A stretch of DNA of 63,239 bases, counting the filler, from Nemertoderma westbladi (Eukaryota; Animalia; Xenacoelomorpha), in the NCBI GenBank assembly GCA_032718475.1. It is 3 parts of 3 records of this genome, joined end to end, with 100 filler letters (N's around TTAATTAATTAA, not from the genome) between each part and the next. Parts side by side here need not be neighbours in the genome. Positions count along the whole stretch, not along the records: positions 25,555 to 55,898 come from JAUCBJ010002555.1; 2 more parts are not named here. One strand, written 5' to 3'. Below are positions 15,618 through 56,067 of this stretch, piece by piece. The notes beneath the pieces are model-generated. The model searched no databases and had not been told where the DNA came from. It saw nothing but the letters and a program-made list of their open reading frames with translations. The position numbers were made by a program, and so were the translations under genes. Within the stretch, counting starts at the first letter, position 1; each line of letters begins with the position of its first letter.

Positions 15618-15741
15618 CTGATCAACTTGAAAGGGATACTGAACTTGGGGGAAACGAAATTGCGACAACTATGGAGAATCGGGAAGCCTGGAAGGATCTC
15701 ATTTCCACTGTCCGAGTTCGCTCGTCCTAGTAGTAGTAGTA
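15618..15741 (+). mobile_element. 5'-truncated RTE LINE 3' fragment
   Basis: GATCAACTTGAAAGGGATACTGAAC...CCTAGTAGTAGTAG, near-identical to the reverse complement of 58119-58241. Confidence 0.85.
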
Positions 15742-17902: not shown

Positions 17903-18502
17903 ATGCGTTTTAGATTTTGTGGGGATTTGGACTGTCCGGACTGGGTGTTAGCCGAGATCAGCATCCTCTACAAGATGACGTCACTAAAACTCAAACAACT
18001 CACCGGCCAGGTGGTAAACCACATTGTAAACGGCGAAATCGACTACGAAAGGGTCGATAAACTCTCCGGAGACGCTAAATTCAGCGACGAGGATCTCAAG
18101 GCGTGCATCGCATGTTTATCTTTCATCATCAGCAGCGCGGCGAAGAACGACTGCGATTCGGAATCTCTGAACGACGAACTACAACAACTCGGCCTTCCTA
18201 AGGAACTATCCGGAGCAATCTGTAAGGTTTACACCGAGAAACGCGAGCCGATACACGCGGCACTGGCGGCTAAGAGTCTGGGGTTCCCCAGTCTGGACTC
18301 GGTTGATTGGCGTATCGACGGAGCGGAGACCGACAGTCCGGCTGTCCGGTTGTGTCTCGGTGTGCGGGACCCGGACTCGCACCGCGTACAACGTCACGTC
18401 ATCTCGGCCGACGCCGATCAGTTTAACTTGCTGCTACACGAACTCCGACAAGCCCAGCAGGTTACCACTGGGTTCACTTCCAACGTAGACCAGTATAAAT
18501 AA
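17903..18502 (+). CDS. COMMD4: COMM domain-containing protein 4 (199 aa, single exon)
   Basis: Signature N-terminus MRFRFCGDLDCPDWVLAEI; ELQQLGLPKE; COMM domain VDWRID...LLHELRQA. Confidence 0.95.
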   Translation: MRFRFCGDLDCPDWVLAEISILYKMTSLKLKQLTGQVVNHIVNGEIDYERVDKLSGDAKFSDEDLKACIACLSFIISSAAKNDCDSESLNDELQQLGLPKELSGAICKVYTEKREPIHAALAAKSLGFPSLDSVDWRIDGAETDSPAVRLCLGVRDPDSHRVQRHVISADADQFNLLLHELRQAQQVTTGFTSNVDQYK

Positions 18503-25454: not shown

Positions 25455-25553
25455 NNNNNNNNNNNNNNNNNNNNNNNNNNNNNNNNNNNNNNNNNNNNTT
25501 AATTAATTAANNNNNNNNNNNNNNNNNNNNNNNNNNNNNNNNNNNNNNNNNNN
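25455..25553. other. Assembly gap with TTAATTAATTAA linker
   Basis: N runs around a six-frame stop linker. Confidence 0.97.
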
Positions 25554-26572
25554 NTAGTTTTAATCTCTGTTAAGAAATTTCAGATTATAACAGACTCAGC
25601 ATATTATATGATGTTATCGACGCAGATTCCATTTTTGCCAAATCTAAGGCTGGCTGACTGGATTGTGAGATGGTTAGAGGCGTCTGGATCAAGCTTTTGC
25701 ACGCCGGATAGAACTATTTATAGAACATAAGGGAACACACGAGAACACAGTTAGAACATAATTAGAATACACCGCAAACATAGGCTAACACATGCACGCA
25801 TTGCACACATTATTGCACGCCTGTAATATTGTTCTTCCAACGTGACTAAACAATTGTAGGATTCCTTATACAAGCAGCTACCTCATTTTGATTGATCTAG
25901 GATAAGTGACTTCACCTCTTCCGTTAGTACATCCATAGGTCTATGTTTCATTTGACGACAAAAATTATTCATTCGAGTTATTCTTCAAGGATCTTATAAT
26001 ACTTAATACAGCTCCAGATACCTTTTTATCAATTAGAGACAATATTAGGGCTGAGTACAAAATAAAGACCCAAGGCCCAATTAAATAACCTGCATAATCT
26101 TGTAAAATCTCTTAACATTCATTTATTGTTTTGGTTCCACCAACAACGCTTCTGTAACCTGCCTCTTTACTAACTTGCTCCTTTAAATGGCAATGGGACC
26201 TAAAGCGACTTTACCTCTTTGTTTTGTACACTCTAGGGTCTTTGGTCTTTGTTTTGGACTCACCATAAAATTAGTTAGAATTAAATCCCAATAGCGCTCA
26301 AGGTCTACATTTGTAGACCAAAAGTAGGTGTTATAATTATTTATGTTGTTATGTTGTTACTCGAACGGGTTTTTGAACAACACATTCGTAGCAAGAAATT
26401 GATGTATGCAAGTGCCTACATCACTGAAACTGATCATTACACAACATCATTAAATAAATTTCCATATTAAGAAAAAGAAAATGTCTTACATTATTCTTAT
26501 ACGAAGTTGAATCGAAATATCTAAAATTTGTCTCTCCGGAGAAGCGCCATGCCACTCTTGAAGCATCTCAAA

Positions 26573-27522: not shown

Positions 27523-28244
27523 CTATATGCCCTATCACGGGCTTTCCTCCCCCTTATTGGCTAATAACCTACTTGTCACCCTTTCACTCTCTGTTAGTGT
27601 TTCCCCTCTGCTGCTAGCCTCTGCTAGCTGTGTCCCATCCGAGGTGGTTTGACCTATTGCTGAAAATGCCACCATCCCATTTTATGAGGGAGTAGTATGA
27701 TAAACAACTTAAATAAAACAGCGTCTGCCATAGTCTACCATGTTAAAGAATTTGCCTAACGGCTCTTGCCCCGCCTACTTACTATGATTACCATTGTGTC
27801 ACCCCGCCCACTTACTATGGTTACCATTGTGCATATGTAACATATGTCACCACTGTGTATATGTGACATATGTGGTATAAGGCCAGTCCGCAGACGGAAG
27901 TAATTTAATTAATTTGTGTCTACCGGTTGGCATTTGACCTTGAACCGCAATAGGTAAAACCCAATATAGTAAGTGGGTTGCAGACGTTTGTTATAAAGTC
28001 TTTAACATGATTTCGTGATTTGATGAAAAAATGGGGCGAGCCATGAAGCGAGTGAAGCCTTAGCATGTGGGTTAAGGTTATAGTATTTATAATATTATTT
28101 TAATTTGATTATTCTACCTATGGGGCGCGCCATGAAGTGAGTGATAGCATCGAAGTAAGGTTATTGTATTTATAATATTATTATTTTAATTTGATCATTT
28201 ACTTAAATCCGTCACCGCTTTATTTAAAAACTTCTCCCACCACC

Positions 28245-28673
28245 TTACCCGCTTATCCCGCTATCACCATCCACCCAATCTTCTTCCTGATCCTCAGCAT
28301 CATTACCACCACCACCATCACCCAACATCACCATCATTCCTTCCAACATATTGATTCTCTCCTCCATCGCTTTCTCCCGCGCTCATCTCTCCGCCTCCTG
28401 CGCTCTCCTATCCCCCTCCGCTTCCATTTATAATGTCCAATCTTCTCCCCACGCGCTGTTCTTCCTCGCCTCTTCCTCCAAATAATGTTTTTTTTCTATC
28501 TCCTCCCACTCATTCCTTGGATTTAACAATCTTTCTAGCATCGCTTCTTCTCTCTCTCTCACATACATCGCTACTAATATCTCTTCGTTCTCCTTCGCTA
28601 CATCCTCATCTTCCTCCTCTTCCTCCACATCCATATCCACTTCATCCACCGCAAGCTCATTTTCTCCCAACAT
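28245..28673 (-). pseudogene. Acidic/charged hypothetical viral protein (~140 aa, two internal stops)
   Basis: ORF 28428-28679 continues in frame past TAA and TGA to ...EEDWVDGDSGISG*. Confidence 0.5.
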
Positions 28674-28903
28674 ATTCACGTATAATAAATAAATGTGTAT
28701 ATAATAATAATAATAATAATGTATAATACTATAAATAAATAAATTTATATAATATTTATTTCAATCGATAATTCATTATACCAACAAATAATTTACCACC
28801 ACAAAATAATAATAATAATAATTTAACCGTGTCCGGCTCGTTGCAGCGACACTGCCTATGAACATGGTCTATTTATATAATAAAGTTTCTACCGCGCGAA
28901 GAT

Positions 28904-30196
28904 TCACACTGAATGTTTATTCTTCTTTATTTGAGGTTGCCCATTAGTCTCGATTTCATTGAAAATGTCTTCACCATCATCCGTATCATTGACGATGTCC
29001 TCTTCAAAGTCGCCAATATCTTCATACGCATAGCTAGGTGTTTTATTCACGATGAGATCAATTTTTCGCTTAAGCGCTTGTTCTTTCCTGGCTTTAGGCG
29101 TTTTCATCTTCATCTGAGCGCTCACACCCCCAACGAGGGTATCAATATCCTTATAATCATTCTTTTTTTCAGCGCCGTCTACCCGTTCATTTTCTGCAAT
29201 CGCGGGCAATCAGATTTTTTTCTCATCCATTTTCTTAGCAGTGACTTTTACTGCTTCATACGTCTTCAGCTGACTAGCGTTGTTCGGCATTTCCACTTTC
29301 ATTAGTTCCTCGTCCACTAATTCATTAATCGCAGCCTCAACAACTAACTTTTTAATCGGTAGAAACTCACACCCAGACAGAATATCGTGGCCCGCGTACT
29401 TCTGTAATTGCTTAATTACCTTGACATTTGTGTTGTTTCGAGGGATGAAAATAACCTTGGTGTCGAAGTTGTGGGACAAATATATCCCGTTTTCGTTAAC
29501 AGTTGATGTGTACCTCATACTAACCTCATCAATATTCTCATTAACATTCTTATCTATGTTAAAGTCGAGCAAACAGAATTCATCCGCTCAGAGATTCAAC
29601 CCATCGTAATATAGAACACCCTTCCATTGTCTACCTATATCATGCGCTTCCCAAACGCCGACAAATCGTTGCCCTTCAAAGTCGTAGATATATCCAATGT
29701 ACCCACAATCTTCGAACTCCATAAAATTATCACCGTGAATTTCCTTTTTCTCCGGTTCAATACGGGAAAGAACGACTTTGCCGTAGATGCTTTGTAAGAC
29801 ATCTAGAATTTTTCGCGAGATAAAAATTGATGCGCCGTTTTTCCCAATGCGTAAGTACGCATGATTTATTGGCGTTATAAGCAAATTGCCTCTGGTGTAT
29901 TCCTTGTAATATTCAATGGCTATTTTCTTATAATTGAGGAAGTCAAATAGGAATCTTATGTTCTGGTAAGTAAGACTTACTGATTCTTGCACGACGTTGT
30001 GTCCTTTGGTATCACCCCAACGGTTGAATCGAACGTATTTCCCGTTAAATGCTTTTATTTCTATTCCTTCCCCCAAACACTGGAGGCCCCACACACTCTT
30101 ACCTGTAATCACCGATACATATGGGGCGGGCGCACTATCAGTAGAGCTACCGCTTAATGACATCATTTTTGGTTGTGATGGTTTCACAGATTCCAT
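28904..30196 (-). pseudogene. Protein with tandem PC4-like (ssDNA-binding/coactivator) domains, two in-frame TGA stops
   Basis: ORFs 29588-30202, 29210-29572 and 28904-29209 share one frame. Segments IKAFNGKYVRFNRW...SVSLTYQNIRFL and YDFEGQRFVGVWE...GLNL*ADEFCLL resemble the PC4 pattern. Confidence 0.5.
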
Positions 30197-30782
30197 CAAC
30201 AAATTTTGCGAAATATTAATAATTAAGTGTAAAAATACAATAATATCATGCTATACAATGTGCGAAAAATATTAATAATGAATTATAACCCGAATGACGA
30301 AATAAATTATTATACGACGTATTTATAATATAATGATGGGCTATCGGGAAAACGGGTATATTTTAACTACTCAACCGGATTAATCGCTATTGTCCTGAGA
30401 GAATTTTTTTTGAAAACTTCCTAAATTTCAAAGGAAATATTTATTTACGCTTAAATTGGTTGACGTAAGTGGTAACAGCTTGCGGTGGCGATTAATGCGA
30501 CCTACATAAATTTATATAGACACACCCCCGAATTTCCACAGAATATTACTCACGGTTAAATTGATTGACATCAACTGTATTAACAGTGTAGCTTCTTAGA
30601 AGTTTCATAATTTTAAGCATGAGCGAATTTAATTTAATGTCGGCATCGTAAACTTTCTCTCCCGATGGATATTTTTCTGTAATCATTTACTAAAAACAAA
30701 CGATTGCGGCGCGCGAACGACGTTTTAAAGACACACCCATTATAAATATACCCATTGGTGAAAATATTATTGATTAAGCGAC

Positions 30783-31330
30783 ATGACAATACTGGGGCAG
30801 CTTGAGTCTATAGATAAGATCATTTTTTCAAATATATTATTCATTGTTACCTTTCTTTTTGGAATTTTTTTAGGTAAAATACGCCGTAATAAAAAAATGT
30901 TTCCAATAATACAAGCTGAAAATAGTTACCGCGGTCCTAATTCAATTATTCCAATTAAAATTGAATTGTTAAGCCCGGCAGCTCGGGCGCCTGTATGCGG
31001 CTCATATTGTCATATAGTCCTGCTGGGATTGATATATATAGCGCCGTGAATAGATCAATAGAGCCACACTCACGAATGTTAATTGAGACGAGTGTTAAAA
31101 TATATTTACCCACCAATTATTTTGGAAGAATTACACCGACTTTTAGGTTGACAAAAATTGGCATTGATGTTGCAGAATGTGCGGTTGATTCCAGTGTCGC
31201 GCGCAGTAACATAGATCAACTTGTAATTATATTGATTAACAACACATCTAAGGAATACGTTGTAACATCGGGCAAATAAAATATGCCAGCTTATATGCCA
31301 ACAATGTAATGCGGCAATACTCTACGTTTC
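30783..31330 (+). pseudogene. dUTPase-like gene with N-terminal hydrophobic helix, frameshifted
   Basis: LSPAARAP..GS, AGIDIYSA, IETSVKIYLPTNYFGRI, IILIN, ICQLI spread over shifted frames. Confidence 0.75.
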
Positions 31331-31715
31331 TAATATTTATTCGGATGATTATTTTTGGCTTTTACCGACGAATTTAACGCCGTATGGGGAAGAGATTAAT
31401 TCAGCATTTCACCGCACATATTAAATATGTGACATTAAACGCATAACACCAAACTCGGGTGGTGACACATGTCAATACTATTTCAATACTCTTACACGCG
31501 ATTATACAACATAGTTAATAGAGCATATAAATAGGATAATTGTCAGTTCAGTAAATTTTGGTTGATTAAACGGTTTCTAGCGCAGGTGGCTGACTGGGTA
31601 TTGGATATATTTATCTACATAAAATCTGCCGCATCTCTATCATCGGCATATTGTAAATATGTTTTCTGTACCTACGTTAATAAATATATTATAATCGTAA
31701 TAATAATAATTATAA

Positions 31716-34700
31716 TGATGGAGATTAATTGCGTTTTTTGCGGTTGTACTATACTTAAGAAAAATTATTTACGGCATTTACGCACACATTTCGATGGGTA
31801 TGTTTGCGATTGTAATTGCCGAACTACTTCTGAAAGAATAGCAATATTTCACAGTAATAGATGTTGTGGGTTGTCTCGCCCGAATTACACCTACCGCAGT
31901 TACGCGCTATCCTGCCCAACATGCTCTGATGATTTTGAAAACTTTGAATCATATATCGAACATAGTTGCAATCAAAACCATTACAATTCCCGCAAACGCA
32001 AACATAACTAAAAACAATCAGAACCGACATTTCAATCAGATCTCAACGATGGTTCGCCTGTAAGCATTACAAACAGCTCAGATACACCCAACGAAGGTTT
32101 TCATCTCTCAAAAACATGTCACGAATCATGCGTTCAGGAATATACTCATAATGTACCATCTAATGAGATGTATCCGGATGTGCCGAATTATTTAAATTAT
32201 ATGAGGATATATTCTTCGCGCGCTTTTAACACGGCTGCATCGGCTTTTATTGATATGTTTTATAAAGTGTGGGTGATTGCTTCGGTGATAATGGGAACGT
32301 GATGATGCTAATTATACTTTACAAGAAGAATTCCATTTTACTTCGATCGGTACAGATAATTATATTGAAAATAGCTCGGAATTTGACGAATGGTACTACA
32401 CAGTCATTTCCCATATCGGTGAAAAAATATCGCAATTTATTAGGCGGGGTAGCGGTTGGAAACTTGTAACTCTATCGTGCATCAAACTTACTATTGCGTC
32501 ATACTTGTGATCGGTATATTGTTTTGGACATAGTGGTGATGCCAACCAATCAATCCCGACAAAATTAAAAAATAAACATTGTATAATAAATGTACCGTGT
32601 AATGAAGGTGAATGTTTTAAGTGGGCGGTCCTGACAGCAAAATTTTCAAAACATATATCGGATGATCACACACTGCGCCATGTTTCACGCCAAAGTTCTT
32701 ATAATCAGTATTTAGGGTTTTTTAATTTAAGCGAATTAGATTCTACCCTATCATGGAAACTAAATATTCTAAATTTTGAAAAAAATAATCCAAATTATTT
32801 AATACATTTATTGTATTTCGATAGAAGTAGCGAAAAAATTTCCTTTCTACGACAACCGAGCGCTAAAAAAGCTGAAGGTAAAAGATTGCTAAATTTATTG
32901 CTTATTGAACGTCAAAATTTAACCTCAACAAATCACATCGTCGGGGTTTCCAACTTAAATAGATTATTTAATGGTCGCGGGGAAGGCAATAGCAACACTC
33001 ATTGTCATCGTTGTGAGCGGTGTATTCGTGGCTTCTACAGTCCTAATGCGTTAGAACGCCATAGATTGTGGTGTTGGCAAGGTGGACGTCAAATAGAGGA
33101 GATGCCATCTAAACTGAATTTACGCTTTACTAATTACTATAAGTCTGTGAGTACACCTTTTATAGTATATATGGATTTCGAAGTGGTACTAGCCCCAACA
33201 AATAATGTAAAAAAATATTATATAGCCGAAAATCTCCCGTCGGCTGTTTCATATTTGATTGTCAACAATAGCGAATTAATTAACCCACCAAATTATTTTT
33301 TGTCTACATTTAGACAAAATATCGATAACAGAATTTTATCAATAGTCTGGTTTTTGATTTATTTAAGTGTTATGAATGGTCTACCTTTTAACACTATTCC
33401 ACCTGGGCTCTTTTGTCCGAGATTCCACCTGGGGTTGGGCATAATATGCCCAACAGTTTATTATACACTAAAAAGTAATGATAATTTTATCAAAATTTTC
33501 CAAATTTTCGCAGGTTTATAGAAAAATATATAATGCATCTGTTCTGAGTTTTATATATTCATAATTTAAAATAATATATCCATATAAATTAATTATCATG
33601 AAGATAACCCATTATAGTAAAAAGATGAGATAATACTATACATATTCCTCCCAACACCGCTGTCTGCCTAACTCTGCCAGACATCCCAAGTGAAAATTTT
33701 GCTTGCAGGGGTGCTGTTATTGAATAGATTTATTCACCTCTGTTTATGTCTGCTGTATTACATTAGGAATATACTGGGTTCAATGGTGGTTGTTGTTTTA
33801 TCCTAGTAGACTTATTGCTTATCTGTCAGTTTAGTATTTTGTTATTAAAAAATAATGTGATTGATGTGTACTAATCCAAGCAGTAGACAATCTCGTGTTT
33901 GAATTTAACTTTACAACCCAGCCAAGTGAATGTCCTGGACCGTAATTGGTTGTATTCTAGCCTGTTGACCAGGGGAACTATCCAACCAGGGATTATCTTT
34001 TCTACCAGTTAGGCTAATAAAGATATTATAATAAAAAAATGTGACTATGATATGAAAAACACACCATAGCTCAAAAAGTATAAATGATGAAAAAAATATT
34101 TTGTAACCATCAGAAAGCCAATTAAATTCTAGGAAAAGTCAATGAATTTCATAATAATACATAAAAATCATCATCATGAATTTCTAAAAATAAAAAGTGT
34201 TGGGCAGATTCGGTTAACACACACCACCCCAAACACCTGGATCACACACAATACCAAGCTTATATGCGTACCGCAAATTGCTTTAAGTAAATCATTTTTT
34301 CGGGAAGATATAAATCCAAGTGTAATGCATCACAACCATTACAATGGGGCTTTCATTGGTGCGGCATGTATTTCCTGTAATAAACAATTAAGTGTTACAC
34401 GTCACCTATTCCCAGTTGTCTGTCATAATTTTTTTTTTTATGATTCACATTTAATTTTACAAAAAGGGTTTGCCGGTAGTAAATATAAAAACTGGAACAT
34501 TGAAACCATTGCAAAAAATACTGAAAGATATATCTCACTTCGCATAGATATTCCAATGTCAGAAGCACTTAGCGTGCTTGGTTATGCTATTCCAGAAAAG
34601 GACGTAAAAGGGCTCCCAACCAGCAAATCAATAACTATACAGTTTATTGATTCATTCGCGTTTATGGGATTTTCCCTTTCTGCTTTGGCTGGGTTTTTGA

Positions 34701-36594
34701 CAAAAGATGTGTCAGATTTAACAACCGTTATTCCGCACACTGTGAAGCAAATGAGAAAATTATATCCAAATGTTACCAACGGAATTTTACGTCGTAAGTC
34801 AGTTTTTCCTTACGAATATGTCGATTCCTTAAGTAAATTGAGGGATACTAAATTACCGCATCCAAAAGAGTTTTACAGCGAATTAACATTATCATCTATT
34901 AGCCCTGAAGAATATACATTTGCTCATCTTTCGTGGGAACAATTTGAATGTGAGACATTTTTTGATTATTTGGAAGCTTACTTACATCTTGACGTGTTGC
35001 TGCTAGCTGATATTTTTGAAAATTTTCGCGCTTATTGTACTAAACATTATTCGCTTGAGGTCTCGAACTATTACACGATGGCAGGGGTTAGTTGGGACGC
35101 GGCTTTGAGATTTTCCAAGTCACATATTCGTCTACTTGCAGACCATGAAATGTATTTAACATTCGAAAATTCCATTAGCGGCGGAGTTTCTTACACCAAC
35201 CTTCATATGGCAAATGCGAATATACCAGGCACAGAAACATACGACCCTAATAAACCTGAAGCTCATTTATATAATTTAGATTTCAACAGTTTATATAGCG
35301 GTTCATTGTTGGAGAAACTTCCTTATTCTGACTTTGAATGGTTGGATGTTGATAGTGTCGATATCATGAGTCTGGAAATTGACGATATATACGGATATTT
35401 TGCTGTTGTAGACCTTGAATACCCAACGACTATTCATGATGCCACAGCCGAGCTTCCATTTGCACTGGAGCATGTTAAACTCGATAGTAGGTATCTCAGT
35501 CCACACATGAAAAGTCCTTGGCGACATTATAATGGTGATAAAATTTTCAATAGTTCAACGAAAAAATTGATGTTAACCCAATTTGATAAGTATGAGTACG
35601 GTGTGCATCTAAAATTATTGCGCTTTTATATTCATCATGGCATGCGCTTGATTAAAGTTCATAAACTTATTAGATTTAAGCAAGGTTACATTTTTAAGGA
35701 TTTTATTGAATATAACACCCAGCAAAGAAAAATAGCAAGCAATGACTTTTATGATAAGTTTCACAAAGGAACAAATAACGCGCTTTTCGGGAAAAGCATG
35801 GAGAATATATGGGACCGTGTCTCATTTCGCTTATGTAATTCAATCAAGAAATGTGACTTATTATTATCCAAGCCGAATCACGAAAATTTAATTATGTTCA
35901 CTGATTCATTATCAGGTCACGTCCTATCTAAAACTGCTGTTTGTTTGCATAAACCTATTTTTTTAGGCCAAGCTGTATTGGACCTGTCGAAGTTAGATTA
36001 TTACAGTTTCTTCTACGAGAAATTAATGCCCCTGGAAGCCGAATTAAATTGTAGTATAAATTTGTTAGGCGGGGACACGGATTCTTTTTTTTACAGTGTG
36101 TTGGTTTATCCCAACACCAATTTTTATCTGCGTTACAATCAAAAAAAGTTTTAGACTGTTCAAATTATCCTATTACACATCCGCTGTATACAGTAGAACA
36201 GAAAGGGAAATATAGATATTTAAAGGATGAAGGGAAGTCTATCCCGTTTGACCAGGGTATTTTACTTAGACCAAAATGTTATAGCTTTCGTGGGGGGTCA
36301 GTTCCAAAACGTGTCGCTAAAGGCGTATGAAAAATGGGTATAAAAAAGAAACTCTCCCACGAATCATATTTAAAAGTATATAACGACGTTAGCGAGCATT
36401 ACGAATACAGTCAAAGGTTTCAATCTAATTTACATAAAATCTACACCGTTTCACAAAGAAAAAAATCGCTAACACTGTGGGAAGATAAAAGATACTACAC
36501 ATCGACTAATGAAAGTTTTTACAGCCATTATAAAACACATTTGGATCGTAAAGCGCCTTCCCCTAAGCTTTATATACCGCCCATTATAGAATAG
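31716..36594 (+). pseudogene. Protein-primed family B DNA polymerase with N-terminal C2H2-like zinc fingers; disrupted
   Basis: C2H2-like fingers, GSGW, CIINV...CFKWAVL, ExoI YMDFE, HNH-like HHNHYNG..IGAAC..CN, HNFFFYDSH, FIDS, KSVFPYEY, DVLLLADIFE, DFNSLY, K..NNALFGK, DTDS, KDE, RPKCYS, DKRY. Several frameshifts and a ~0.9-kb interruption. Confidence 0.92.
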
Positions 36595-36603
36595 CGGATT
36601 GCG

Positions 36604-37164
36604 ATGTCTTTTAGTGTTGTCAACAGTAATATAAGTTTGAGGTTGGTTGATGGGTGCATATCATTCGATGTGCTGGCTAAACGAATTCGAAATGGAAAAC
36701 TCATCTTAAAGCCTTTTCAATATACCGCCAAAATTTGCGGATGGACGTGTCTATTTTTCCCGAGCGGTAAGGTCACTGTACTCAGTAAATCGCTTAAAAT
36801 AAAAAAAATTATTAAGTATATATATAAGCATACTGATTATAAACTAACTTTTATTTCAATCAATAGCCAAACTTATATTATTAACAATCTAGACATAGAC
36901 TATAGGAAATTAATGAAAACGGTCGGGTTTCATTTTTTAGATAATTATTATAATGTGGAGGTGAAATATGAGCCGGAGATATTTAATAATATTCTTGTGC
37001 AGTTTTATCGTCGGGGTAAAACTAGTTCTAATATCATAACATTTTGCGTTTTTTACACACAAAATGTTGTGTGTATGGCAAGACCCGGGATATTTCGAGT
37101 ATTTTTTCCAAAGTTTTTGAATTTTATTGGTAATTTAGATAGTCATTTAGGTAGAAATATTTAA
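36604..37164 (+). CDS. TATA-box-binding protein (TBP)-like viral protein (186 aa)
   Basis: Two-repeat TBP pattern: VVNSN, TCLFFPSGKVTV, SINSQT, YEPEIFN, FCVFYTQNVVC. Intact ORF starting 9 nt after the polB stop. Confidence 0.72.
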   Translation: MSFSVVNSNISLRLVDGCISFDVLAKRIRNGKLILKPFQYTAKICGWTCLFFPSGKVTVLSKSLKIKKIIKYIYKHTDYKLTFISINSQTYIINNLDIDYRKLMKTVGFHFLDNYYNVEVKYEPEIFNNILVQFYRRGKTSSNIITFCVFYTQNVVCMARPGIFRVFFPKFLNFIGNLDSHLGRNI

Positions 37165-37619
37165 TTTTTTCATTTCTGGTGCCAGTTTTAGGTTTGTCCG
37201 GCGGGATCTCGTTAGGTTTTTAAATAAACGTGGATATTACCATTATTCACATTATATATAACGTGTTTTATCGGTAGTCTTAGGTTGTCAAGGGCATCAA
37301 TTTCATTTCTGATGTCGGTTTACATTTACATAAATCTAGTCTATCTGTCTATTTGTCGGTCTTTCTGTCAGTCAGTATGTCAAACTTAATTCATTTTTCG
37401 CATTATATAATGGGTCAAACTTAATTCATTGTTCGCGTTATATAATGTATTTTATTAATTATCGATGTTAGGTTTTAAAGAGTGCTGGTTTCTATAATTG
37501 CTCGGTTTTATCGCGTGAAAAACCCCACCTGCGCATGTACTCGATACTATTTATAACGGTGGCGGTGTTTTATTACTTACTATTATTGTTCTCGTTTATA
37601 TAAGTTATTAATATATGTA

Positions 37620-38081
37620 ATGAAATCACTCAAAGCTTTAATTAAACAATTTGACGGGGATTTAAAGTTCTTATCTAACGCCTCCCTTAACCGTAGAAAA
37701 CCCTTCTTACGCGTCAGCGGAACCAATGAACCTATAAGTTTTCTAATTAATATTATTCTAAATGTATTAAATGGTAACGTAAAAATTCCTGAGCAAACAA
37801 TCGCGAGGTTAAAACGCCATAAAAAAACAATACGCGAGATCGCTAAAAAACCAATAGCCAAGTATCCCATCAGAATTTACCATAAACGATTGGTGCAAAG
37901 GGGCGGATTTATAAATCTACTAATCTCTGGTTTAATGAGTGGGCTTAACGCTTATCAGAAAATATCACCCATAATAATGGCTGTAAGAGGCAGAAAATTA
38001 GCCCAATCCCGCCGGGGGTATAGACCTAGTACCTCTGGTACATGCGTCAACCGTCAAGTTTCTAGGTTTCCCATCTACTGA
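37620..38081 (+). CDS. Polinton-type basic virion/core protein with GG|F cleavage-like site
   Basis: IILNVLNGNVKI...LKRHKKTIREIA...LVQRGGFINLLISGL: basic region followed by an amphipathic helix, as seen next to the ATPase in this element class. Confidence 0.6.
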   Translation: MKSLKALIKQFDGDLKFLSNASLNRRKPFLRVSGTNEPISFLINIILNVLNGNVKIPEQTIARLKRHKKTIREIAKKPIAKYPIRIYHKRLVQRGGFINLLISGLMSGLNAYQKISPIIMAVRGRKLAQSRRGYRPSTSGTCVNRQVSRFPIY

Positions 38082-38098
38082 GTGGCTACCTATCAACA

Positions 38099-38809
38099 AT
38101 GTCCCGAGAGCTGGCGATATCGCAGGAACCAATCACATCATACGACGCCTCTTTCAAGATGGGTTCGGCCATGATTATAGCGGGTCCAAGTTCTTCCGGA
38201 AAAACAGTGCTGGTATCAAAAATTGTAAAAAATAAAAATTTAGTTTTTGATATAACCCCGAAGCGTGTATTATTATTTTATGGCGCCACCCCACCTGAAT
38301 TCCCCGGTATAACACATCTATTCAAAGGTTTACCGCAAAAAATTAATTCTATTTTCCGCGAAAACGATCTAATTATTATAGACGACTTGTTAAGCGAAAG
38401 TAAGAGTGATGAGAGTTTGACAGAAAGTTTCACAAAAACCTGACATCATACTTCCTGTTTCATTATCTATATAACACAAAATTTTTTCAGTAAAGGGGCG
38501 GAAACACGGACTAGAAGTCTAAATGCCCAATATTGTATTTTCACAAAAAATCCCCGCGACGCAATTCAAATAAGTTATATAGCGCGGCAAGTGTACCCAA
38601 AAAATAGCAATTTTATTGTTCAAGCATATAGCGATGCCACACAAAAACCATTCACACACCTTCTTTTAGACTTTCATCAAAAAACGGATGATAGTATAAG
38701 AGTTAGGGGTGATATTTTCAACCCATTAGGGCAAACTGTTTATCAACCCACGAACACGAACTCTAACACACCTCACCAAGGCCCTGAGGCTCAGTCTATA
38801 CCACAGTAG
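38099..38809 (+). pseudogene. A32/FtsK-like DNA packaging ATPase (one internal TGA at 38441)
   Basis: Walker A GPSSSGKT, Walker B LIIIDD, then *HHTSCFIIYITQN...SLNAQY...KNPRD in frame with ORF 38591-38809. Confidence 0.9.
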
Positions 38810-38931
38810 CGACGCCGCGCGAAAACCATTTTCACACCTTGTTTTATACTTTTACCAAAATTAGGTTATTATCGGTCCATGAACGTGAACTCTAGTATAT
38901 AGTATTAATATATTAATAATGATATATAACG

Positions 38932-39418
38932 ATGAAAAATAACGAGATTAGCCTCGGAAATTTTAAGAAGTTGTATCTAGTTTCTACTTTATTAACGGAT
39001 ACTTATAATAATAATAAGAAAAGCAATAATATAATACAACCGCCAGATGGTGTGGCAATTTCATCCCCGAAAGCCAAACGATTGTTGAGTTATTTGATGC
39101 GATTCTCGCAAGACAGAGTACGGTGGAGTGATAATAATAAACTCTATATAGAAAATAAACTTATACCCGGAGCGAATATTGATCATTTGATTGAATTGCT
39201 GACTACAAAAAAAATAAGAAAAACACCAAAATAATTCCAGGACAAACAACATTTTTGGGGTTATTAAAACGATTAAGGATACCAAAATGATTAATTGGTC
39301 GCGGTTGGTTGAAACGACAAGGGGTCCGTGTGACCCCCTCCAACGCAAAACGCGTTGACGCGTGGAAACAATACGTAGGAGTACAATATATCGACGTGTG
39401 GAAACAAAACGCGGGATA
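38932..39418 (+). pseudogene. Conserved Polinton hypothetical protein, frameshifted
   Basis: KAKRLL...VRWSDNNKLYIENKLIPGANIDHLI matches a pattern recurrent in Polintons; end approximate. Confidence 0.5.
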
Positions 39419-39507
39419 ACATTGAAATAGTAGTATGTTTTTTGAACGTTTCATATTAAGTATTAACTGTCATTGCAAGTGTTTTCTACCGCGACTTGAC
39501 ACAACCG

Positions 39508-40599
39508 ATGGGGAGAATCGTAGAAAATCGAACAAACAAACGACTGGGACGAATATATTACGATGTTTCAAATGCTGCCGGTTTCGCGAGCGTAACCAAA
39601 CTAGCGAAAGCCGCTAAAGTTACGAGAAATCGCGCAAAGGAGTGGTTGAGCTCCCAACGAACGTATTCCCTACACGCGCTGGCTAGGCACCATTACCCGA
39701 CATCAAAAATTTTCACGGGCGGCATTGGAGATCTATATCAGGCGGACCTATGCGATATGCAACCCTTCAGGGTGGAGAATAATGGTTATGGTTACATAAT
39801 TACTTGTATCGATTGCTTCAGTCGCAAGGCATGAGCACTAGGGTTAAAACGTAAAACCGGTGTCGAAATTAAACGCACCCTAACCACAATATTCGAAGAA
39901 AGAAAGCCTAAAAGACTGGCGGTTGATCAGGGTACTGAGTTTGTAAATAAATTAGTGAAAGAATTCTTACAGAATAATAATGTTAATTTTTATACATTAG
40001 TTGCCAATTTAAAGCTAGCATCTGTGAGAGGCTGAACCGCACACTTAAGTCGAAAATGCATAAAGTGTTCACAAGGCGGCAAAATAGGAAATGGATCGAC
40101 ATATTGCCAAAGCTGGTAATTTCATATAATAATTCAATACATAGAACCATCAGTATGGCACCAAACTCAGTCAATAAAAATAATGAAACTGACTTATTTT
40201 TAAAACTATATGGCAGTGTGGGCCATCCCAATAAAAAGAAACGCCGCGAACAGTGTTGAGTTTATTTCAAAGTTGGCGATAAAGTGCGTCTGAGTTTAAC
40301 CGTGATGCCATTTTCCAAAGGATATACACCTAACTATACCTGGGAAATTTTCGAAATTTCTAGAATACGGATGGATCGAGAGCCGTACCCTATGTACGAA
40401 GTTATGGATGTGAATAGGCAGTGTTATTAAAGGGACATTTTATTAATATGAAATGAAAAAGGTGAAAGAACCGTTTGAGTTCTTACCAATTGAAAAAGTA
40501 ATCAAGGAAAAAGTAATAAACAAAAAAACAGGGAAAAAACAATACCTAGTAAAATTCGTTGGTTATGCGAAGCACCGGTGGGTTGATAGGATACAATAA
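39508..40599 (+). pseudogene. Retroviral-type (rve) integrase with C-terminal chromodomain; disrupted
   Basis: IYYD...GF, QADLCDM, IDCFSRKA*A, VDQGTEF, ERLNRTLK, YNNSIHRTI, FKVGDKVRLS, IEKVI...YLVKFVGY. Confidence 0.9.
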
Positions 40600-41484
40600 T
40601 GGATCGCTTACATTTGACATTGACTTCTGACACCAGTCTAGATAAATATCCTAACAACACACCGAGCGATTTTACAATTGAATTGTCCAAACCTATCCCC
40701 ATTACCACGGATTGGGTTGTGGGCCTAAAAGAAATACAATATGTATCAACTTATAGGAATATTGAGCAAGGATCCGGAATTAAAATTGGTGAATACATGG
40801 AAGATGTGGATATACCATTCCACATTGCCCTGTATAATCTTATTGAAATCGATCTTAATCATGGGCTGTATGCTTCCGTTGAGTCAATTATATATTATAT
40901 TATGGTATATTTGAAAAAAAATTCCGTAGCACATCATGGTTTCTCCGATGTTAAGTTTAATTATCACAAGCACACATCGAAAATACATTTGCATTCTATG
41001 AAAGGATGCTATTTCCAATTCTACGGGGATTTAATAAATATATTTGGCTTATCGTCTTTAAAAAATAACATACTTGGTCTTGGCGCGTTTTGGTCAATAC
41101 ATTACAACCCAGAAGACAACTTACTAAGTTTAGGCTCTAGAAATTCAGACAAAAATGGAATTGAATTTCCTGAACCCTGCGATATAACGAGGGATAGACA
41201 TACAATGTTTATATATACAGATATAATTGAATCTTCCCACATGGGGCATTCTATGGTTCCTCTTTTGCGGATAATTCCGTTAAAATGGCAACCATACTCA
41301 TTTATAAGTCAAGAGTTCGAAAACACTCATTACAAACAGTTAAAAAATCAAAAATTTGTTAATAAAATTAGTATAACGCTTCGCGATCATAAAGGAAAGC
41401 ATAGTGTTTCACGGCGGTAAAACAATTTTAGTTCTAGAACTAAAAAAACAGTCGCAATTACAAAACTGGTATAATGATGAATAG
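40599..41484 (+). pseudogene. Minor capsid (penton-like) protein 1; frameshift near the 3' end
   Basis: LTLTSDTSLDKYPNNTPSDF...WVVGLKEIQY; IYTDII...VPLLRII; ISITLRD..G / F.GGKTILVL in a shifted frame. Confidence 0.78.
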
Positions 41485-42280
41485 TTAATATGTTGTACTA
41501 ACTTCAAACGCGAACCCAATAGAATTTCCACTTAATAATGCTAGCGATTTCCAAACAAATTTACAAATTCCTTTACCTATCGCTAGAGGGCAATGGTTAG
41601 TAGGTTTGACTAGTATAACCTACATATCTAGTATTCGTCACGATAATAGTATCATTTATATAAAGGCTATAAAAAATAAAAAAATGGATACAAGAGATGT
41701 CACTCTCCCAGAAGGGTCGTTCCTGACATTGGAAAGAATCATTGAGTTCTTCAACAAAAGCATTATTAAAGCACAAATTAATATAGTTGATAATAGAGCG
41801 AGGTCAGGTGATATAACTATTCATTTCAAAGGGAAACAATGGGAAATATTCGTTAGCAAACGTTTGGGTGGTTACCTAGGATTAATAGAGCACGATATTG
41901 ATAAATTAGGTTTCAAGTGCGTAAAAACCGACGTCGGAGATTATAATTTAATTAGAATTAATCCGCGGAATAATAAGTACCAGTGCCATAAACATCCCGA
42001 CGCAGTCGAGATACTAGACCCTAACATAAATATTCACCTTAATTGTGTTGAATCTCAATTTGTGGACAATAACGAATATCGGCTGTTGCGCACCTTACCA
42101 TTAGAAGGGGAATACGGCGAAGTCATTACTAGGGAAGTTAAACAGATATACTATAAAAAACTTAAAGTAACATCTAATTTACGCTATATACGGGCTAAAT
42201 TGGTTGGGGATTCGGGTGATCTGATGCGCTTTCATTATGGAAATTCAATATTGACGCTTCATTTTATACGAATTGACTGA
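41474..42280 (+). pseudogene. Minor capsid (penton-like) protein 2; early in-frame TAA
   Basis: YVVLTSNANPIEFPLNNASDF...WLVGLTSITY; VESQFV...LLRTLP...F.YGNSILTLHF. Confidence 0.75.
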
Positions 42281-42354
42281 GATAGTCACAATTTAATCGA
42301 TGCAAATTATTTATTATTTATTCTTATCTGATTATCTGAAGTAATAGCGACTAT

Positions 42355-42948
42355 ATGGATAAATTTCTAAGTCGCAGCCGCGGTCGTGATTATTACCCGA
42401 CGCTGGAAAACCCAGGAATAATAGTAGATTTCCAATATTATACGCATCATCCGCAGATCGGCCAACACCCCGTTGCAACCATTTATTTTAAAGAGTTTGC
42501 GGCTTATAATACTACCATCAAATCATTAGAAAACGTATGGTTTATTAATGGACCGCCTGCAAAAATTTTAAGTTTAAGCGAATACGATTGTCTCACACAA
42601 CTCGCCAATATTACGCATCACATTAATTTTGACTACGGATTTATGGACCAAAGCGCATTTAAAATGTACATACAGGAATGGTTACAAGAAAAAAAACGGT
42701 TGGGGTTTCAAATATTAATACGCGGAATACCGAAATTATTTATTTTAAAAAATGAATTTAATGTGAATGGAACACTTGTAGAAACGTACGGCATAAACGA
42801 AAAATATGTCGATTATGACACCAAATGTCTTTTCCATGATTATTCGGCAATAACAAATTGTGCCTACCATTCTGATAAAGATTCTTGTTTTAATTACTGT
42901 TCTATGAAACTCACAGTTGGTTATGGGAAATGGTTGTCATCAAATTAA
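42355..42948 (+). CDS. Polinton-associated DEDD/RNase H-like fold protein (197 aa)
   Basis: IIVDFQ...FKEFA...HHINFDYG...ILIRG..K...C.YH...C pattern; intact ORF. Confidence 0.5.
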   Translation: MDKFLSRSRGRDYYPTLENPGIIVDFQYYTHHPQIGQHPVATIYFKEFAAYNTTIKSLENVWFINGPPAKILSLSEYDCLTQLANITHHINFDYGFMDQSAFKMYIQEWLQEKKRLGFQILIRGIPKLFILKNEFNVNGTLVETYGINEKYVDYDTKCLFHDYSAITNCAYHSDKDSCFNYCSMKLTVGYGKWLSSN

Positions 42949-44547
42949 TGTGTATATATTTATTAATTATATTGTATTATTATGTGGTACATATATTATT
43001 TGTTGATTACACATATACGTATGTAGTAAAGAATTATTATTATACGTTATAATAAATACTCATAATGTAAAAGCTTTTGCGTAATTAGTCGGTTATTTTC
43101 CCGTAAAGTACTTTGTAGTTGGTTTACCAGGCATAAAAAGGCCGTGTCCTTGCTGTACTGGTGTTTTAGAGGACATAAAAGTCATTTCTTCTGTATATGT
43201 ACTTTAAAGGACATAATCCGTAATTTCGTGACGCAATAGCTGGATACTCTTGAAAACAGTGTCGCTACCATGACGACGGCTAACAGCTGATATTGCCACA
43301 TCGAACATTTCTTTGTTTCTTTGTTCTCTCTTGTTCGGTTGACCAATCAGAGCGCTTTTTGACTCTGTGTTGGAGATTGTATACAGAAACTCATGAATTC
43401 AGTGTTATGTTTTTGCCCAGAGCCTAAGAACACCGGCTTTTGGCACCTCCGTGTTTCAGTCTTTTAGCTTAACATTAGTAGGCTTAATTATAGAGTGTAT
43501 ATCTGTTATCAGTACACTACTCACTTAATAATCATTTATACTTTAACTTTACTGCTTTTACTAGTCGGTTATGCATTATATTTGTTGATGGAATATTATA
43601 TCGGAATACTGATCAACATTCAGACACCCCAATCTTCTTGATATACTAAAGGTTAGAGAGACCGGTTACATATAAACGATTGCGACCTATGTTAAGTGGT
43701 TTGAAGTGAATCTAATGCTATTTCATAAGCTCGACATAAATTGTCTGTTGCTCTCTTTATACGTGACTAAATTTAGTAAAGGTCGGCAGATTAGTGTGCA
43801 GTATCGTGCAGCATTGTGTATGATTATAACTGATAACAAAGCATCTCCTAAAGAATGCGCCATATACACAAATCTATAGCCATTTCGTTGTGTGTGGTTT
43901 AAGTCATAACTCTGTTTACATATTTAGAGCGCCACGCCCTAAAGGAACTGTTAATATTTCCCGAAAGTGAATAATATTTGTCAGAGATTATATATTACGA
44001 TCAGTCGAATAATACAGTAGGCTTACACCATCAATCAAGTTAAGCTTCCGAATTCAGTCTCCCGGGTATATCCAACGGGTGAATGATTGCGCACAGACTG
44101 GCTTCGGCTAATGTAGTGTATCAAATACTCTTCATAGGCTAAAGACTATCTATCATCCAAAAGACATCCCAATTTGGTAGGTTAAACTGCCAAAGGTCTT
44201 AAAAGCGCAAACAATAACAGATATTATACTTCTGATTGCGGTGTAGGCAATAAATACAGTTTAATATTGTTTTGGTAAAAACAATAACAGATATCGCTTC
44301 TAGATTGCGGTGTAAGCTATCTAGTCGAAAGTACCGGTCGACCGGTAACCAGTAGGCCTGACTGCCTGATCATCCGGACCGGTACCTACAGCAGTACAGG
44401 TACAACAGTATTATTTCGATTGTGATATTGTGTTAGTAGGCTGCTTAAGAGATTAGGGACTGTACACCCCTTGTCTCTTCTGGAGCTTATTTATTTCTGT
44501 CAATTTTATTTACTAGTAGGTTGATATTGAGCAGAAGGCGTGTAACC

Positions 44548-45130
44548 CTGCTCGGATCGTACAGACAATTTGTAGGCTGGACTGTTGTTCTGACTGTTGA
44601 TTAGGTCTGAACGGATTGCAGTGCATGTAGAGTGTATGTCCGATAAAGAACGGTTAGGAAGTAGGGGCAGCCATAGCGGTAAGGTAAACCCCCATCTAAA
44701 GAATAAGTCGTACTACTGGGTTAGAACGCATACTACCTAACCATTTCGGAGTCTGCATGTCCTGTAGTTTATTTAGGCTTGATAGGAGTCCGCCAGCGTT
44801 TGGTCGGTACTTTGTTTGTGTAGTCTGTACGGGTAGCGTATAATTTTATTTAGATAATTTGTAGGCTGGATAGTTGTCTGGTTGTTGTTGGGTTTGAGGA
44901 AATTTCGGTGTGTGTAGAGCATCTGTCCGATAAAGTGCTAGTTGGGAAAGTAGGGGCTTCAAGTGCTGTGAGGTAAACCCCCTGTGAAAGAATAAGTCGT
45001 ACTACTGGGTTCGAACGTATACTAACTAATCATTTCGGAGTCTGCATATACCGTAGTTTGTTTAGGCTTGATAGTAGTCGGTCAGTATTTGGTCTGCATT
45101 TTGTTTGAGTAGTTTGTACGCGTAGCGTAA
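44548..45130 (+). ncRNA. Duplicated ~285-nt putative structured RNA element (long G-U-rich hairpin)
   Basis: Two tandem copies, each with nested complementary segments and compensatory changes between copies. Confidence 0.5.
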
Positions 45131-46094
45131 TATTTATTATTCAGAGTTTATGCTATTATTCGCAACATTCATTCCCCAAGTTTATTCCTACAGTAATTGT
45201 GTCTGTTATACATACCGTTATAGTTAAATTAACCCCGGTACTACATCAGGGCTGCTCGGCGTAGGTAAAGACTGGAGATTGTATGCATTGGTCACTCCGG
45301 CAGATACTGTGGTTCTTTTTGCTGTTCAAGTATTTTTAACGACTGATTATTTGTTGTACAAGTATTTGTACCTAATTTAGGGTTTAGTGTACAGTGCTTT
45401 CCGAAGGTAATTAGCGTGTAGGCAGTGTATTTGTGTTGTAAAGTGGTTAATAGGCACGTTGGTTCTGGTAGACCGCGGTAATTAATCTCTAGGTAGGAAC
45501 ACTCCGTGATACATAACGTAGTACCTATAGCGATACGGTTATAGGTCGTCAGGCGGTGGTATTTTCCTATCTGGACAATGCAGTATATTTACTACTACTT
45601 ATTATTTTCAAATACCGTAGTACCCTGTCCGTTGTAATAACCAGGTATTCTAACCCTTTGTTAGGCTGGTTAGTAGACTTCTTGTAAAATTACCCTAAAA
45701 ATTCGTATTTGTGTATTTGTAATTAAATTTTTGTGTTTATTTAGAGATTGTAATCTCAACCCGAATTGTACGTAATTTGTAGTATTAAGTAACTTAGGTA
45801 AATTAGAATTATTTGTTTTAGTGTCCAACAAGTAGCACTCCACTGAGAGTGCACAGCTTATGTGTAGTGACTCCCCCAGAAATAATAACATTTATTTCAA
45901 ATATTGACAAAACCCATTAAACAGGTATATATATATTATAAATCAACTCAAACGATTTATAAATAGTAGGCCTGCCATACAAAAATTAGGTCTCAATATC
46001 AGTTGGACTACTGCTTAAATAACGGTAATAAAGTAAGTTAAAGTAACCAAGTAACCCTTAAAATTCAGAAATTCAATTATTTAAAATAATTGAC

Positions 46095-46465: not shown

Positions 46466-46592
46466 ATTATATATATCACGCTACACTGAGTAGCAGTATC
46501 GGTAATTAATTACTAGGCTAGTAGTTAATACTGAATTACTAGACTTGCTTAGACTGTAATATAGCAGTAGGCATTCAACTGTGCACACAAAC

Positions 46593-48077
46593 ATGTCTGA
46601 TACTAAGCAGAACCTGTCAGACAGTTTGTTAGATGTAACTATCTGCGACTCAGATAGGGGTGTAGAACCGTCTAGACCTAAGTTCAGTTCACCTCCCACT
46701 GTGAGGAAGGTCCTCCCTCCTGTAGTAATATCAGACCCTAGGCTAATCCAACACCATAGGTCTGTCATAGGCACTCGAGCTCAGGTCAAGCGGGACCAAG
46801 AAGCAGCGGAACAGCAACAACCCGCGAGCCAAGAACTTGTTTCTCAGCGGCCCGACAGCTCCAGTAGTGAAGATACTGTAGAGCTGACACCCGAGCGCGG
46901 AGCAAAGATGACGGATGCGGTTTATTCGGATCCACTTCTCATCCTTCCTGCAGCCGTACTCACTAGGATATTGATCGTGGTGGAAGAACACCAGATTGAT
47001 TGGGCGAGAAGTCAGCGATCAACTAAAGATAGTTATGCGGGATACACAAGGGAAGAACTGAAGTCTATTGTCGAGTCGCAATGGAACTTCCCCGGACCCG
47101 GACTCCCGTTTGATTTATCAGAAGCTGCCTGGGAAGATATACACAGGATGGGAGTAACCAAGGAAACCATCGATCCAGCTGTGTGGAAGAGGTCCGCAGC
47201 CAGATACGCACAGGGATTCTTCAGCTCCATGAAGCGATTAGAAGAACAACTGTTTCAACAACCACAAGGACCTCAAGAGCAGGGAGAGCTGCTTTATCAA
47301 GTTAGAGAAAGAATTCTAAGAATCAGACTAATCTTATCTGCCTTTGAGGAGGCTTCGAAAAGAAAGCAAGACACGTTGTTGCAAGTTGCCGTAAAGACTT
47401 GGTTACAGCGGGTGAGTCTCCAAGTTCAAAGAGCTGCCCCGTGGAAATCGCAGTTAGATGAGCGCTCAACACTTGGGGAATCCACAGACGCTACCTTTTC
47501 CCAAGTGGAAAGTGAAGCGACGGCAGAGAAGCCGCATAAGAGGGATGCCATTGACATCTATCTGTCGGACTATCAACGTTTTGTAGGTGATGAAGAGTTG
47601 AGGAGAAGACTAGAGGGGCTTAGCCCTAATAGTGAAGGAGCCCAGCGTGTGTTGGACGCAATCGATGTGGATAGGTTAGCTGCGAACCAAGCTAAATTCA
47701 ATGAAAGCATCCGCATCGCTAAGGTTCAGGAAGAACAAGTAAAGAAAAAACGTATAGAAGATAGAAAGACAGCAGCAGCGGCAGTGGCAGCGGCAGAAGC
47801 AGAAAGAAAAGCGGCAGAAGTGGATAGAAAAGCGGCAGAGGCAGTGGCAGAGGCAAAAGCGGCAGCGGCAGAGGCAAAAGCGGCAGCAGCAGCAGTAGAA
47901 GCGGAAAGAAAGGCGGCAGCAGCAGAAGCGGAAAGAAAAGCGGCAGAAGCGGAAAGAAAAATAGCAGTGGCAGAAGCAGAACGGAGGGCATCTGAAGAGA
48001 CAACCCAACTAGAGTTGGAAAATCTTCAAGAGAGACAAGACAACTTTAATAAACAGTTAACAGCTAGTAATATGTAG
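46593..48077 (+). CDS. Coiled-coil ORF upstream of and in frame with gag
   Basis: ~494 aa with AAEAERK repeats; its TAG is directly followed by the gag ATG. Confidence 0.6.
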   Translation: MSDTKQNLSDSLLDVTICDSDRGVEPSRPKFSSPPTVRKVLPPVVISDPRLIQHHRSVIGTRAQVKRDQEAAEQQQPASQELVSQRPDSSSSEDTVELTPERGAKMTDAVYSDPLLILPAAVLTRILIVVEEHQIDWARSQRSTKDSYAGYTREELKSIVESQWNFPGPGLPFDLSEAAWEDIHRMGVTKETIDPAVWKRSAARYAQGFFSSMKRLEEQLFQQPQGPQEQGELLYQVRERILRIRLILSAFEEASKRKQDTLLQVAVKTWLQRVSLQVQRAAPWKSQLDERSTLGESTDATFSQVESEATAEKPHKRDAIDIYLSDYQRFVGDEELRRRLEGLSPNSEGAQRVLDAIDVDRLAANQAKFNESIRIAKVQEEQVKKKRIEDRKTAAAAVAAAEAERKAAEVDRKAAEAVAEAKAAAAEAKAAAAAVEAERKAAAAEAERKAAEAERKIAVAEAERRASEETTQLELENLQERQDNFNKQLTASNM

Positions 48078-50657: not shown

Positions 50658-50688
50658 TTGGGACGAGGATGAGTTAGCATCCAGCATC

Positions 50689-55998: not shown

Positions 55999-56067
55999 GA
56001 ATACATAGAATGAAACACATAGAATGAACATAGAGAGAAACACATAGAATGCTCATCAGATATAAAT

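What the first reader, a model, noticed from the sequence alone, without database searches (positions are those of the whole stretch)
28245..42948. Polinton-like virus carrying its own putative transcription/host-control module
Seen: the core Polinton genes plus TBP-like, multi-PC4-like, dUTPase-like, DEDD-like and acidic DSGIS-ending ORFs, with a leftward accessory arm and a rightward replication-structural arm. Known: the canonical Polinton set is pPolB, integrase, ATPase, protease and two capsid proteins; TBP and PC4 both act at the Pol II preinitiation complex. Inference: a lineage that redirects host Pol II to viral promoters. This is the best candidate for an undescribed system here.
Basis: partly seen in the sequence, partly recalled or inferred. 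Interest (0 to 1): 0.8.

Follow-up and report, generated by a model that had tools for sequence, protein, structure and literature searches.

The report
Decayed Maverick with its own TBP
A broken, cut-off copy of a virus-like Maverick/Polinton element in an animal genome carries a divergent TATA-binding-protein gene that likely helped steer the host's RNA polymerase to viral genes, but the same gene set is already labelled in public adintovirus annotations and the claimed PC4 partner could not be confirmed.

Summary
The stretch is a decayed, right-truncated copy of a multi-copy Maverick/Polinton (adintovirus-type) element. pPolB, packaging ATPase, integrase and two penton-like ORFs are present; no major capsid or protease gene was found in the window. 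The TBP-like ORF (36604-37164) is probably a real, very divergent TBP: Atlas 28 of 30 hits TBP, and it matches a clear TBP in the sister element L087 (z 8.8; sister in two trees). The dUTPase is a truncated remnant. The 'DEDD' ORF weakly matches a Maelstrom-like accessory family. PC4 is unconfirmed by profiles and folds. DSGIS occurs once, behind two in-frame stops. L087 repeats CATAAAC before 6 of 13 genes; the window shows no such word. The gene set is not undescribed: a supplement of PMC11071296 labels TBP, the PC4 orthologue 'Mosub' and Maelstrom in one adintovirus (Adinto13673), though its main text never discusses them. This scan noted TBP-carrying Mavericks before in other genomes. Verdict: new member of a known kind; the TBP's function is untested and testable.

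The parts
27691..28240 (+). Probable left terminus: AGTAGT end motif and short subterminal direct repeats; no inverted counterpart in the window
   Evidence: motif type from PMC8097293 section 7; exact end inferred
28245..28673 (-). Acidic frame with in-frame stops at 28430 and 28385, ending DSGISG; no family hit
28904..30196 (-). One 430-codon frame with stops at 29590 and 29212; N-terminal part has three hairpin/helix repeats, PC4-like by eye only
   Evidence: negative or uninformative tests in 13, 84, 85, 106, 107, 125
30897..31350 (+). dUTPase-like remnant, frameshifted and truncated
31715..36594 (+). Protein-primed DNA polymerase B, broken by stops and frame changes and interrupted by a foreign stretch; the Cys/His-rich start at 31715 is inferred to be its N-terminus
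33387..34213 (.). 827-bp foreign stretch inside pPolB, skipped by contigs in 3 of 4 runs laid
   Evidence: table 5
36604..37164 (+). Intact 186-aa divergent TATA-binding-protein-like ORF
37620..38081 (+). Small basic conserved Polinton ORF (matches 5 related loci; resembles the 'GasderminX' label by eye)
38099..38809 (+). Packaging ATPase with one in-frame stop at 38441
38932..39234 (+). Small ORF of unknown function
   Evidence: one weak hit, E 0.012
39508..40599 (+). rve integrase with chromodomain-like tail, broken by a stop and frame changes
40599..41420 (+). Penton/minor-capsid-like ORF 1
41474..42280 (+). Penton/minor-capsid-like ORF 2
42355..42948 (+). Intact 197-aa Maelstrom/DEDD-like accessory ORF; first motif reads D-x-Q, C-terminal Cys/His cluster
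43058..43090 (.). Right edge: a different, far higher-copy repeat begins; the element is cut off here
   Evidence: depth table

Best explanation
This is a broken, right-truncated copy of a Maverick/Polinton-type element whose divergent TBP-like protein likely served, in active copies, as a virus-supplied promoter-reading factor that would bring host TFIIB-type factors and RNA polymerase II to the element's own genes. Shown: element identity, decay, sister copies in the same organism, kinship of the ORF to a clear TBP in the sister element L087. Inferred: DNA binding (four Phe at the TBP DNA-kinking positions, F38/F52/F127/F150, one of two central Asn kept), TFIIB recruitment (acidic YEPE stirrup kept), and private promoters (seen only in L087 as CATAAAC). 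The left-arm ORF, if PC4-like at all, is more likely a single-stranded-DNA-binding helper for protein-primed strand-displacement replication; dUTPase, the Maelstrom-like ORF and the acidic ORF are independent accessory genes, not one module.
For: TBP: Atlas 28 of 30 hits TBP, score 0.94, 197-200 of 256 features shared; Pfam TBP E 0.005; only phmmer hit among 3829 ORFs of related loci is L087:14633-15139 (E 7.8e-4), which is TBP at E 2e-15; local score z 8.8, 0 of 500 shuffles. L087 is the window's sister in the ATPase tree (96/97, 20 rows) and in the pPolB clade (0.999, 58 rows); its TBP lies next to the ATPase. The frame is open although most neighbours are broken. Another Polinton, L021/L034, has TBP beside TFIIB (E 7e-14, 5e-11). 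L087 has 11 CATAAAC copies, all on the coding strand, 6 of 13 genes within -100..-10; 1 of 300 random placements did as well. Precedent for viral TBP mimics: PMC7498053 abstract. PC4-like folds act in replication too: PMC7549692 passages.
Against: Pfam score is below the cut-off (17.1 vs 22.9 bits); Atlas recognition value 1814 is under its 2300 mark; no relatives in 5.8 billion or 1.8 billion proteins; similarity to the L021 TBP is not significant (58 of 500 shuffles); a 2-sequence TBP profile scored the ORF only E 0.13; no internal repeat by self-alignment. No shared upstream word in the window (96 and 153 of 300 random placements as good) or in TBP-carrying L034 (30 and 141 of 300). No TFIIB gene in the window. 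Residue roles are recalled, and mapped by eye.
Confidence: 0.55

Rival explanations
1. One reading: TBP, a multi-PC4 protein and an acidic degron mimic form one transcription/host-control module acting at the Pol II preinitiation complex.
For: TBP and PC4-type labels co-occur in Adinto13673 and uAdinto20464; the window ORF shows three hairpin/helix repeats and z 3.1 to the L111 PC4 (7 of 500 shuffles); a C-terminal DSGIS binds beta-TrCP in rotavirus NSP1 (PMC5574712 passages).
Against: PC4 not detected by Pfam, PHROGs, PDB, Atlas or hhalign (0.3%); no similarity to the L024 PC4; PC4 occurs where no TBP was found (L024, L111; 29 of 30 labelled uAdinto entries); the genes lie on opposite arms; DSGIS is a post-hoc 5-residue match, not the canonical DSG-phi-x-S, and lacks the downstream acidic residue that NSP1 needs for CKII.
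Confidence: 0.15
2. The TBP-like protein binds DNA or host factors for another purpose: a decoy that damps host transcription, a BRF/Pol III partner, or a DNA-bending factor for replication, integration or packaging.
For: No promoter word in the window or L034; gene sits between pPolB and the ATPase block; cluster names for the L021 partner do not separate TFIIB from BRF; very basic protein (26 K+R, 10 D+E).
Against: L087's strand-biased upstream word and the TBP-TFIIB pair in L021 point to promoter recognition.
Confidence: 0.2
3. The ORF is a degenerate relic or only superficially TBP-like and had no function in this lineage.
For: Sub-threshold profile scores, no database relatives, failed single-sequence model.
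Against: Open frame, landmark residues kept, significant match to a clear TBP in the nearest relative, contigs of all 4 runs cover it.
Confidence: 0.1

Closest known systems
Adintoviruses annotated in the supplement of PMC11071296 (file 2), above all Adinto13673 and Adinto18043
   Same: Adinto13673 is labelled PolBa, TBP (listed right after PolB, as here), Mael, Mosub (PC4 orthologue), GasderminX, integrase, PacK ATPase, penton; Adinto18043 has TBP and two pentons. TBP labels on 14 Adinto and 8 uAdinto entries.
   Different: Those entries also list hexon, adenain and cupiennin, missing from this cut-off copy; gene order differs; this TBP is more divergent. I compared labels and glimpsed sequence by eye only; the main text has no TBP, PC4 or Maelstrom word.
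Mavericks/Polintons of animals (PMC8097293; PMC8502044)
   Same: pPolB, ATPase, integrase, minor capsid, AGTAGT end motif, variable accessory genes; a TBP label occurs in a MELD-virus figure legend of PMC8502044.
   Different: Major capsid, protease, right terminal repeat not in the window; vertebrate Mavericks are described without TBP or PC4 (0 occurrences).
Metagenomic Polintons L087 and L021/L034
   Same: TBP gene beside the virion/ATPase block; L087 also has the Maelstrom-like ORF, L021 a dUTPase and a double penton.
   Different: L087 has a clear upstream word CATAAAC; L021 has TFIIB; the window has neither.
Beta/gamma-herpesvirus TBP mimic (KSHV ORF24)
   Same: Virus-encoded TBP-like factor using host Pol II for late genes (PMC7498053 abstract).
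   Different: ORF24 works with five other viral proteins and binds the Pol II CTD through an N-terminal domain; the window protein is a bare 186-aa core.

Membership tests
Maverick/Polinton (adintovirus-type) | Protein-primed DNA polymerase B | tested here: met
   (broken copy)
Maverick/Polinton (adintovirus-type) | rve integrase | tested here: met
Maverick/Polinton (adintovirus-type) | Packaging ATPase | tested here: met
Maverick/Polinton (adintovirus-type) | Minor capsid protein | tested here: met
   two ORFs
Maverick/Polinton (adintovirus-type) | Major capsid protein and adenain protease | tested here: inconclusive
   Absent from the window, but the copy is cut off at about 43060 and sister copies could not be read
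Maverick/Polinton (adintovirus-type) | Terminal inverted repeats with AGTAGT ends and target-site duplication | tested here: inconclusive
   Left motif at 27691 only; no right repeat
TBP (PF00352) | Sequence similarity to the family | tested here: met
   Indirect: Atlas (33), homolog L087 (56, 63, 83); direct Pfam score below cut-off (8)
TBP (PF00352) | Two-repeat saddle fold | tested here: inconclusive
   Single-sequence model pLDDT 35, fold search uninformative; 3-sequence profile that includes the ORF aligns over both repeats of solved TBPs
TBP (PF00352) | Four DNA-kinking Phe, central Asn pair, acidic stirrup | tested here: inconclusive
   F38, F52, F127, F150, N7, E123/E125 kept; second Asn replaced; by-eye mapping, roles recalled
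TBP (PF00352) | Binds TATA DNA and TFIIB | not testable with these tools
   needs bench work
PC4/Sub1 (PF02229) | Profile match | tested here: not met
PC4/Sub1 (PF02229) | Four-strand sheet plus helix fold | tested here: inconclusive
   pLDDT 33; best Z 2.9
Maelstrom/DEDD-like | Profile match and catalytic D-E-D-D set | tested here: inconclusive
   Pfam E 0.02 below cut-off; D-x-Q first motif; no PDB hit
Herpesvirus late TBP mimic | N-terminal Pol II CTD-binding domain and six-protein complex | tested here: not met
   186-aa ORF is all TBP core
beta-TrCP degron mimic | DSG-phi-(x)-S with downstream acidic priming residue | tested here: inconclusive
   DSGIS present, priming residue absent, frame broken

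The most novel reading that the evidence does not exclude
A clade of animal Mavericks runs its own late-gene programme with a minimal private TBP (sometimes plus TFIIB) whose changed DNA-reading surface recognises a non-standard TATA word such as L087's CATAAAC: a one- or two-gene way of redirecting host Pol II in a 20-kb virus, with a PC4-fold helper and a beta-TrCP decoy as extras in this lineage.
Probability: 0.3. Interest if true: 0.7.

Novelty: new member of a known kind. Interest (0 to 1): 0.36.

Why it matters
How Mavericks switch on capsid and integration genes is unknown. A captured TBP with a matching promoter word would make that directly testable and would extend viral TBP mimicry from herpesviruses and giant viruses to small integrating viruses. 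This window is a poor specimen for it (decayed, truncated, no clear promoter word); L087 and L021 are better. The gene content itself is already labelled in public data, so the value lies in the untested function.

Tried and rejected
No whole genome held. Homolog searches: TBP-like none; Maelstrom-like none. Single-protein locus scans found nothing; TBP alignment scan of viral contigs none of 601 candidates; genome scan found only a second copy of the L021 element in a bacterial bin; ATPase alignment scan returned only L024. Both AlphaFold jobs were single-sequence and failed (pLDDT 35, 33), so three fold searches say nothing. A phage hit to the L024 PC4 was spurious. TBP census: no TBP beyond L087 and L021 in 113 pPolB loci, but only 42 of 113 are 10 kb or longer, those two were in the profile, and the profile missed the Pfam-positive TBP of L036, so it is a lower bound. 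Family search by handle reached only 8 of 33 records, 1 with TBP. TATA-like words before window genes are at background. No RNA holder listed, which is no evidence on expression. L021:833-1378 looked PC4-like by eye but has no Pfam support. Alpha/Beta PolB class was not determined (my notes say Beta; the look-alike supplement entries say PolBa). No complex prediction was run. Trees: 58 of 112 qualifying pPolB rows were kept by a hand list, L021's split pPolB is not in it, and the window branch is long.
Full report
Setting. The window is animal DNA with host genes on the left and retrotransposons on the right. No whole genome is held. The finding lies in an AT-rich element that probably starts at an AGTAGT motif at 27691 (the commonest Maverick end motif according to PMC8097293 section 7) and is cut off at about 43060, where a far higher-copy repeat begins. 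No inverted counterpart of the left end is in the window. Four public runs of one organism (at most 3 samples) hold many contigs 90-99% alike across the element, so it is one copy of a family; copy number cannot be read from these data.

Core genes. pPolB has 234 relatives at E<=1e-30. It is broken by stops, frame changes and an 827-bp foreign stretch at 33387-34213. The ATPase has one stop, the integrase a stop and frame changes. Both capsid-like ORFs match a penton profile (1e-31, 2e-22). Profiles of major capsid (11 sequences), protease (11), PZ/cupiennin type (6) and a TFIIB query found nothing in six frames. So the core set is incomplete in this copy; whether sister copies have it is open.

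TBP-like ORF (36604-37164). Direct evidence is weak to moderate: Pfam TBP E 0.005, below cut-off; no database relatives; failed single-sequence model; Atlas 28 of 30 hits TBP at 0.94, with a recognition value under the tool's mark. I fetched 113 loci with related pPolB (33 viral; best 80 of 535 from a partial metagenome scan). Among 3829 ORFs the only hit was L087:14633-15139 (E 7.8e-4; z 8.8, 0 of 500 shuffles), a clear TBP (Pfam 2e-15) beside the ATPase. L087 is also the window's sister in the ATPase tree (96/97) and shares a pPolB clade with it (0.999). A second Polinton, L021/L034, encodes TBP next to TFIIB, plus dUTPase and a double penton; its TBP is not significantly similar to the window's. 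Mapping by eye keeps four Phe at the DNA-kinking positions, one of two central Asn and the acidic YEPE stirrup; these roles are recalled. I put the TBP assignment at about 85%.

Promoter word. L087 has 11 CATAAAC, all on the coding strand, before 6 of 13 genes; 1 of 300 random placements did as well. The window, L034 and TBP-less L024 show no word beyond chance. Decay and uncertain starts weaken the test in the window, but the result gives no support here.

PC4-like ORF. 28904-30196 is one frame with two stops. By eye it has three hairpin-plus-helix units like PC4, and a pLDDT-33 model shows that pattern. No profile, Atlas, PDB or fold search supports it, also when read through with X; the best sign is z 3.1 to the L111 PC4. 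About 45% likely. PC4-type genes (sub-threshold Pfam hits) occur in L024 and L111, where no TBP was found. PC4-like folds also serve replication, as in phage T5 (PMC7549692, passages).

Other accessories. The dUTPase is a remnant. The DEDD-like ORF shares motifs with ORFs of L031, L087 and L099 (E 0.006) and has a weak Maelstrom hit; nuclease activity is doubtful (D-x-Q). DSGIS occurs once, at the end of an acidic frame with two stops. It equals the rotavirus NSP1 beta-TrCP motif but lacks the downstream acidic residue needed there (PMC5574712, passages); a post-hoc short match.

Literature. Searches: polinton + TATA-binding protein (5 papers), polinton + maverick + TBP (2), polinton + TFIIB (18, listing only), polinton + PC4 (1, listing only), (0; 2). 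PMC8502044 and its preprint mention TBP only in figure legends (passages and section 10; one supplement file, no hit). PMC11071308, two 2026 preprints, PMC8097293 and the nematode preprint 10.1101/2023.08.22.554363 have no TBP or PC4 in the main text (term searches). PMC11071296 has none in the main text, but supplement file 2 (cut when stored; seen as search hits) has 27 TBP, 35 PC4, 2 TFIIB and 37 Maelstrom places. TBP labels are on 14 Adinto and 8 uAdinto entries (authors' labels, unchecked, at least one doubtful by eye). Adinto13673 lists PolBa, TBP, Mael and Mosub together (MoSub1 is a PC4 orthologue per the PMC4350104 abstract start). Of 30 PC4-labelled uAdinto entries, 1 also has TBP. 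Supplements of bioRxiv-only preprints were not seen. I found no paper that tests or discusses the function. This scan noted TBP-carrying Mavericks before in at least 5 genomes; those notes are leads, not support.

Mechanism and verdict. Most likely (0.55) the TBP-like protein read the element's promoters and drew in host TFIIB and Pol II, much as the herpesvirus mimic does by another route (PMC7498053, abstract); PC4-like, dUTPase and Maelstrom-like genes are separate accessories. Rivals: other DNA-binding or decoy role (0.2), joint TBP-PC4-degron module (0.15), relic (0.1). It works like a virus with its own basal transcription factor; it is a fragment of a known kind of element with an already annotated gene set. 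Interest 0.36.

Noticed in passing
L087:11153-18137: CATAAAC occurs 11 times in the locus, all on the coding strand, mostly 36-73 bases before starts of ATPase, integrase, penton and accessory genes of a TBP-carrying Polinton: a good candidate private promoter.
   Followed up: partly
L034:9876-11074: A 20-kb Polinton with adjacent TBP and TFIIB genes, seen on 201 contigs; it is binned into a giant-virus genome (L021) and a bacterial genome (L118), so those bins hold foreign DNA.
   Followed up: partly
L021:3747-4175: dUTPase gene on the opposite strand inside an interruption of the pPolB gene, which looks intron-split.
   Followed up: no
window 3241-18502: Several host genes appear as single long ORFs without introns (pseudouridine synthase 3241-4458, GNT-I/ILEI 13272-15170, ACBP-ECH 16138-17367, COMMD 17846-18502), unusual for an animal.
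   Followed up: partly
window 46560-54792 and 59459-61682: BEL/Pao retrotransposons, the first nearly intact; a tyrosine recombinase ORF at 56023-56712 and LINE reverse-transcriptase pieces at 58246-59474.
   Followed up: partly
window 43060-45500: High-copy repeat of unknown kind, about ten times deeper than the Polinton, with an internal 290-bp duplication; it cuts the element off.
   Followed up: no
window 25455-25554 and 55899-55998: Assembly gaps written as N runs around a TTAATTAATTAA spacer; artefacts.
   Followed up: no
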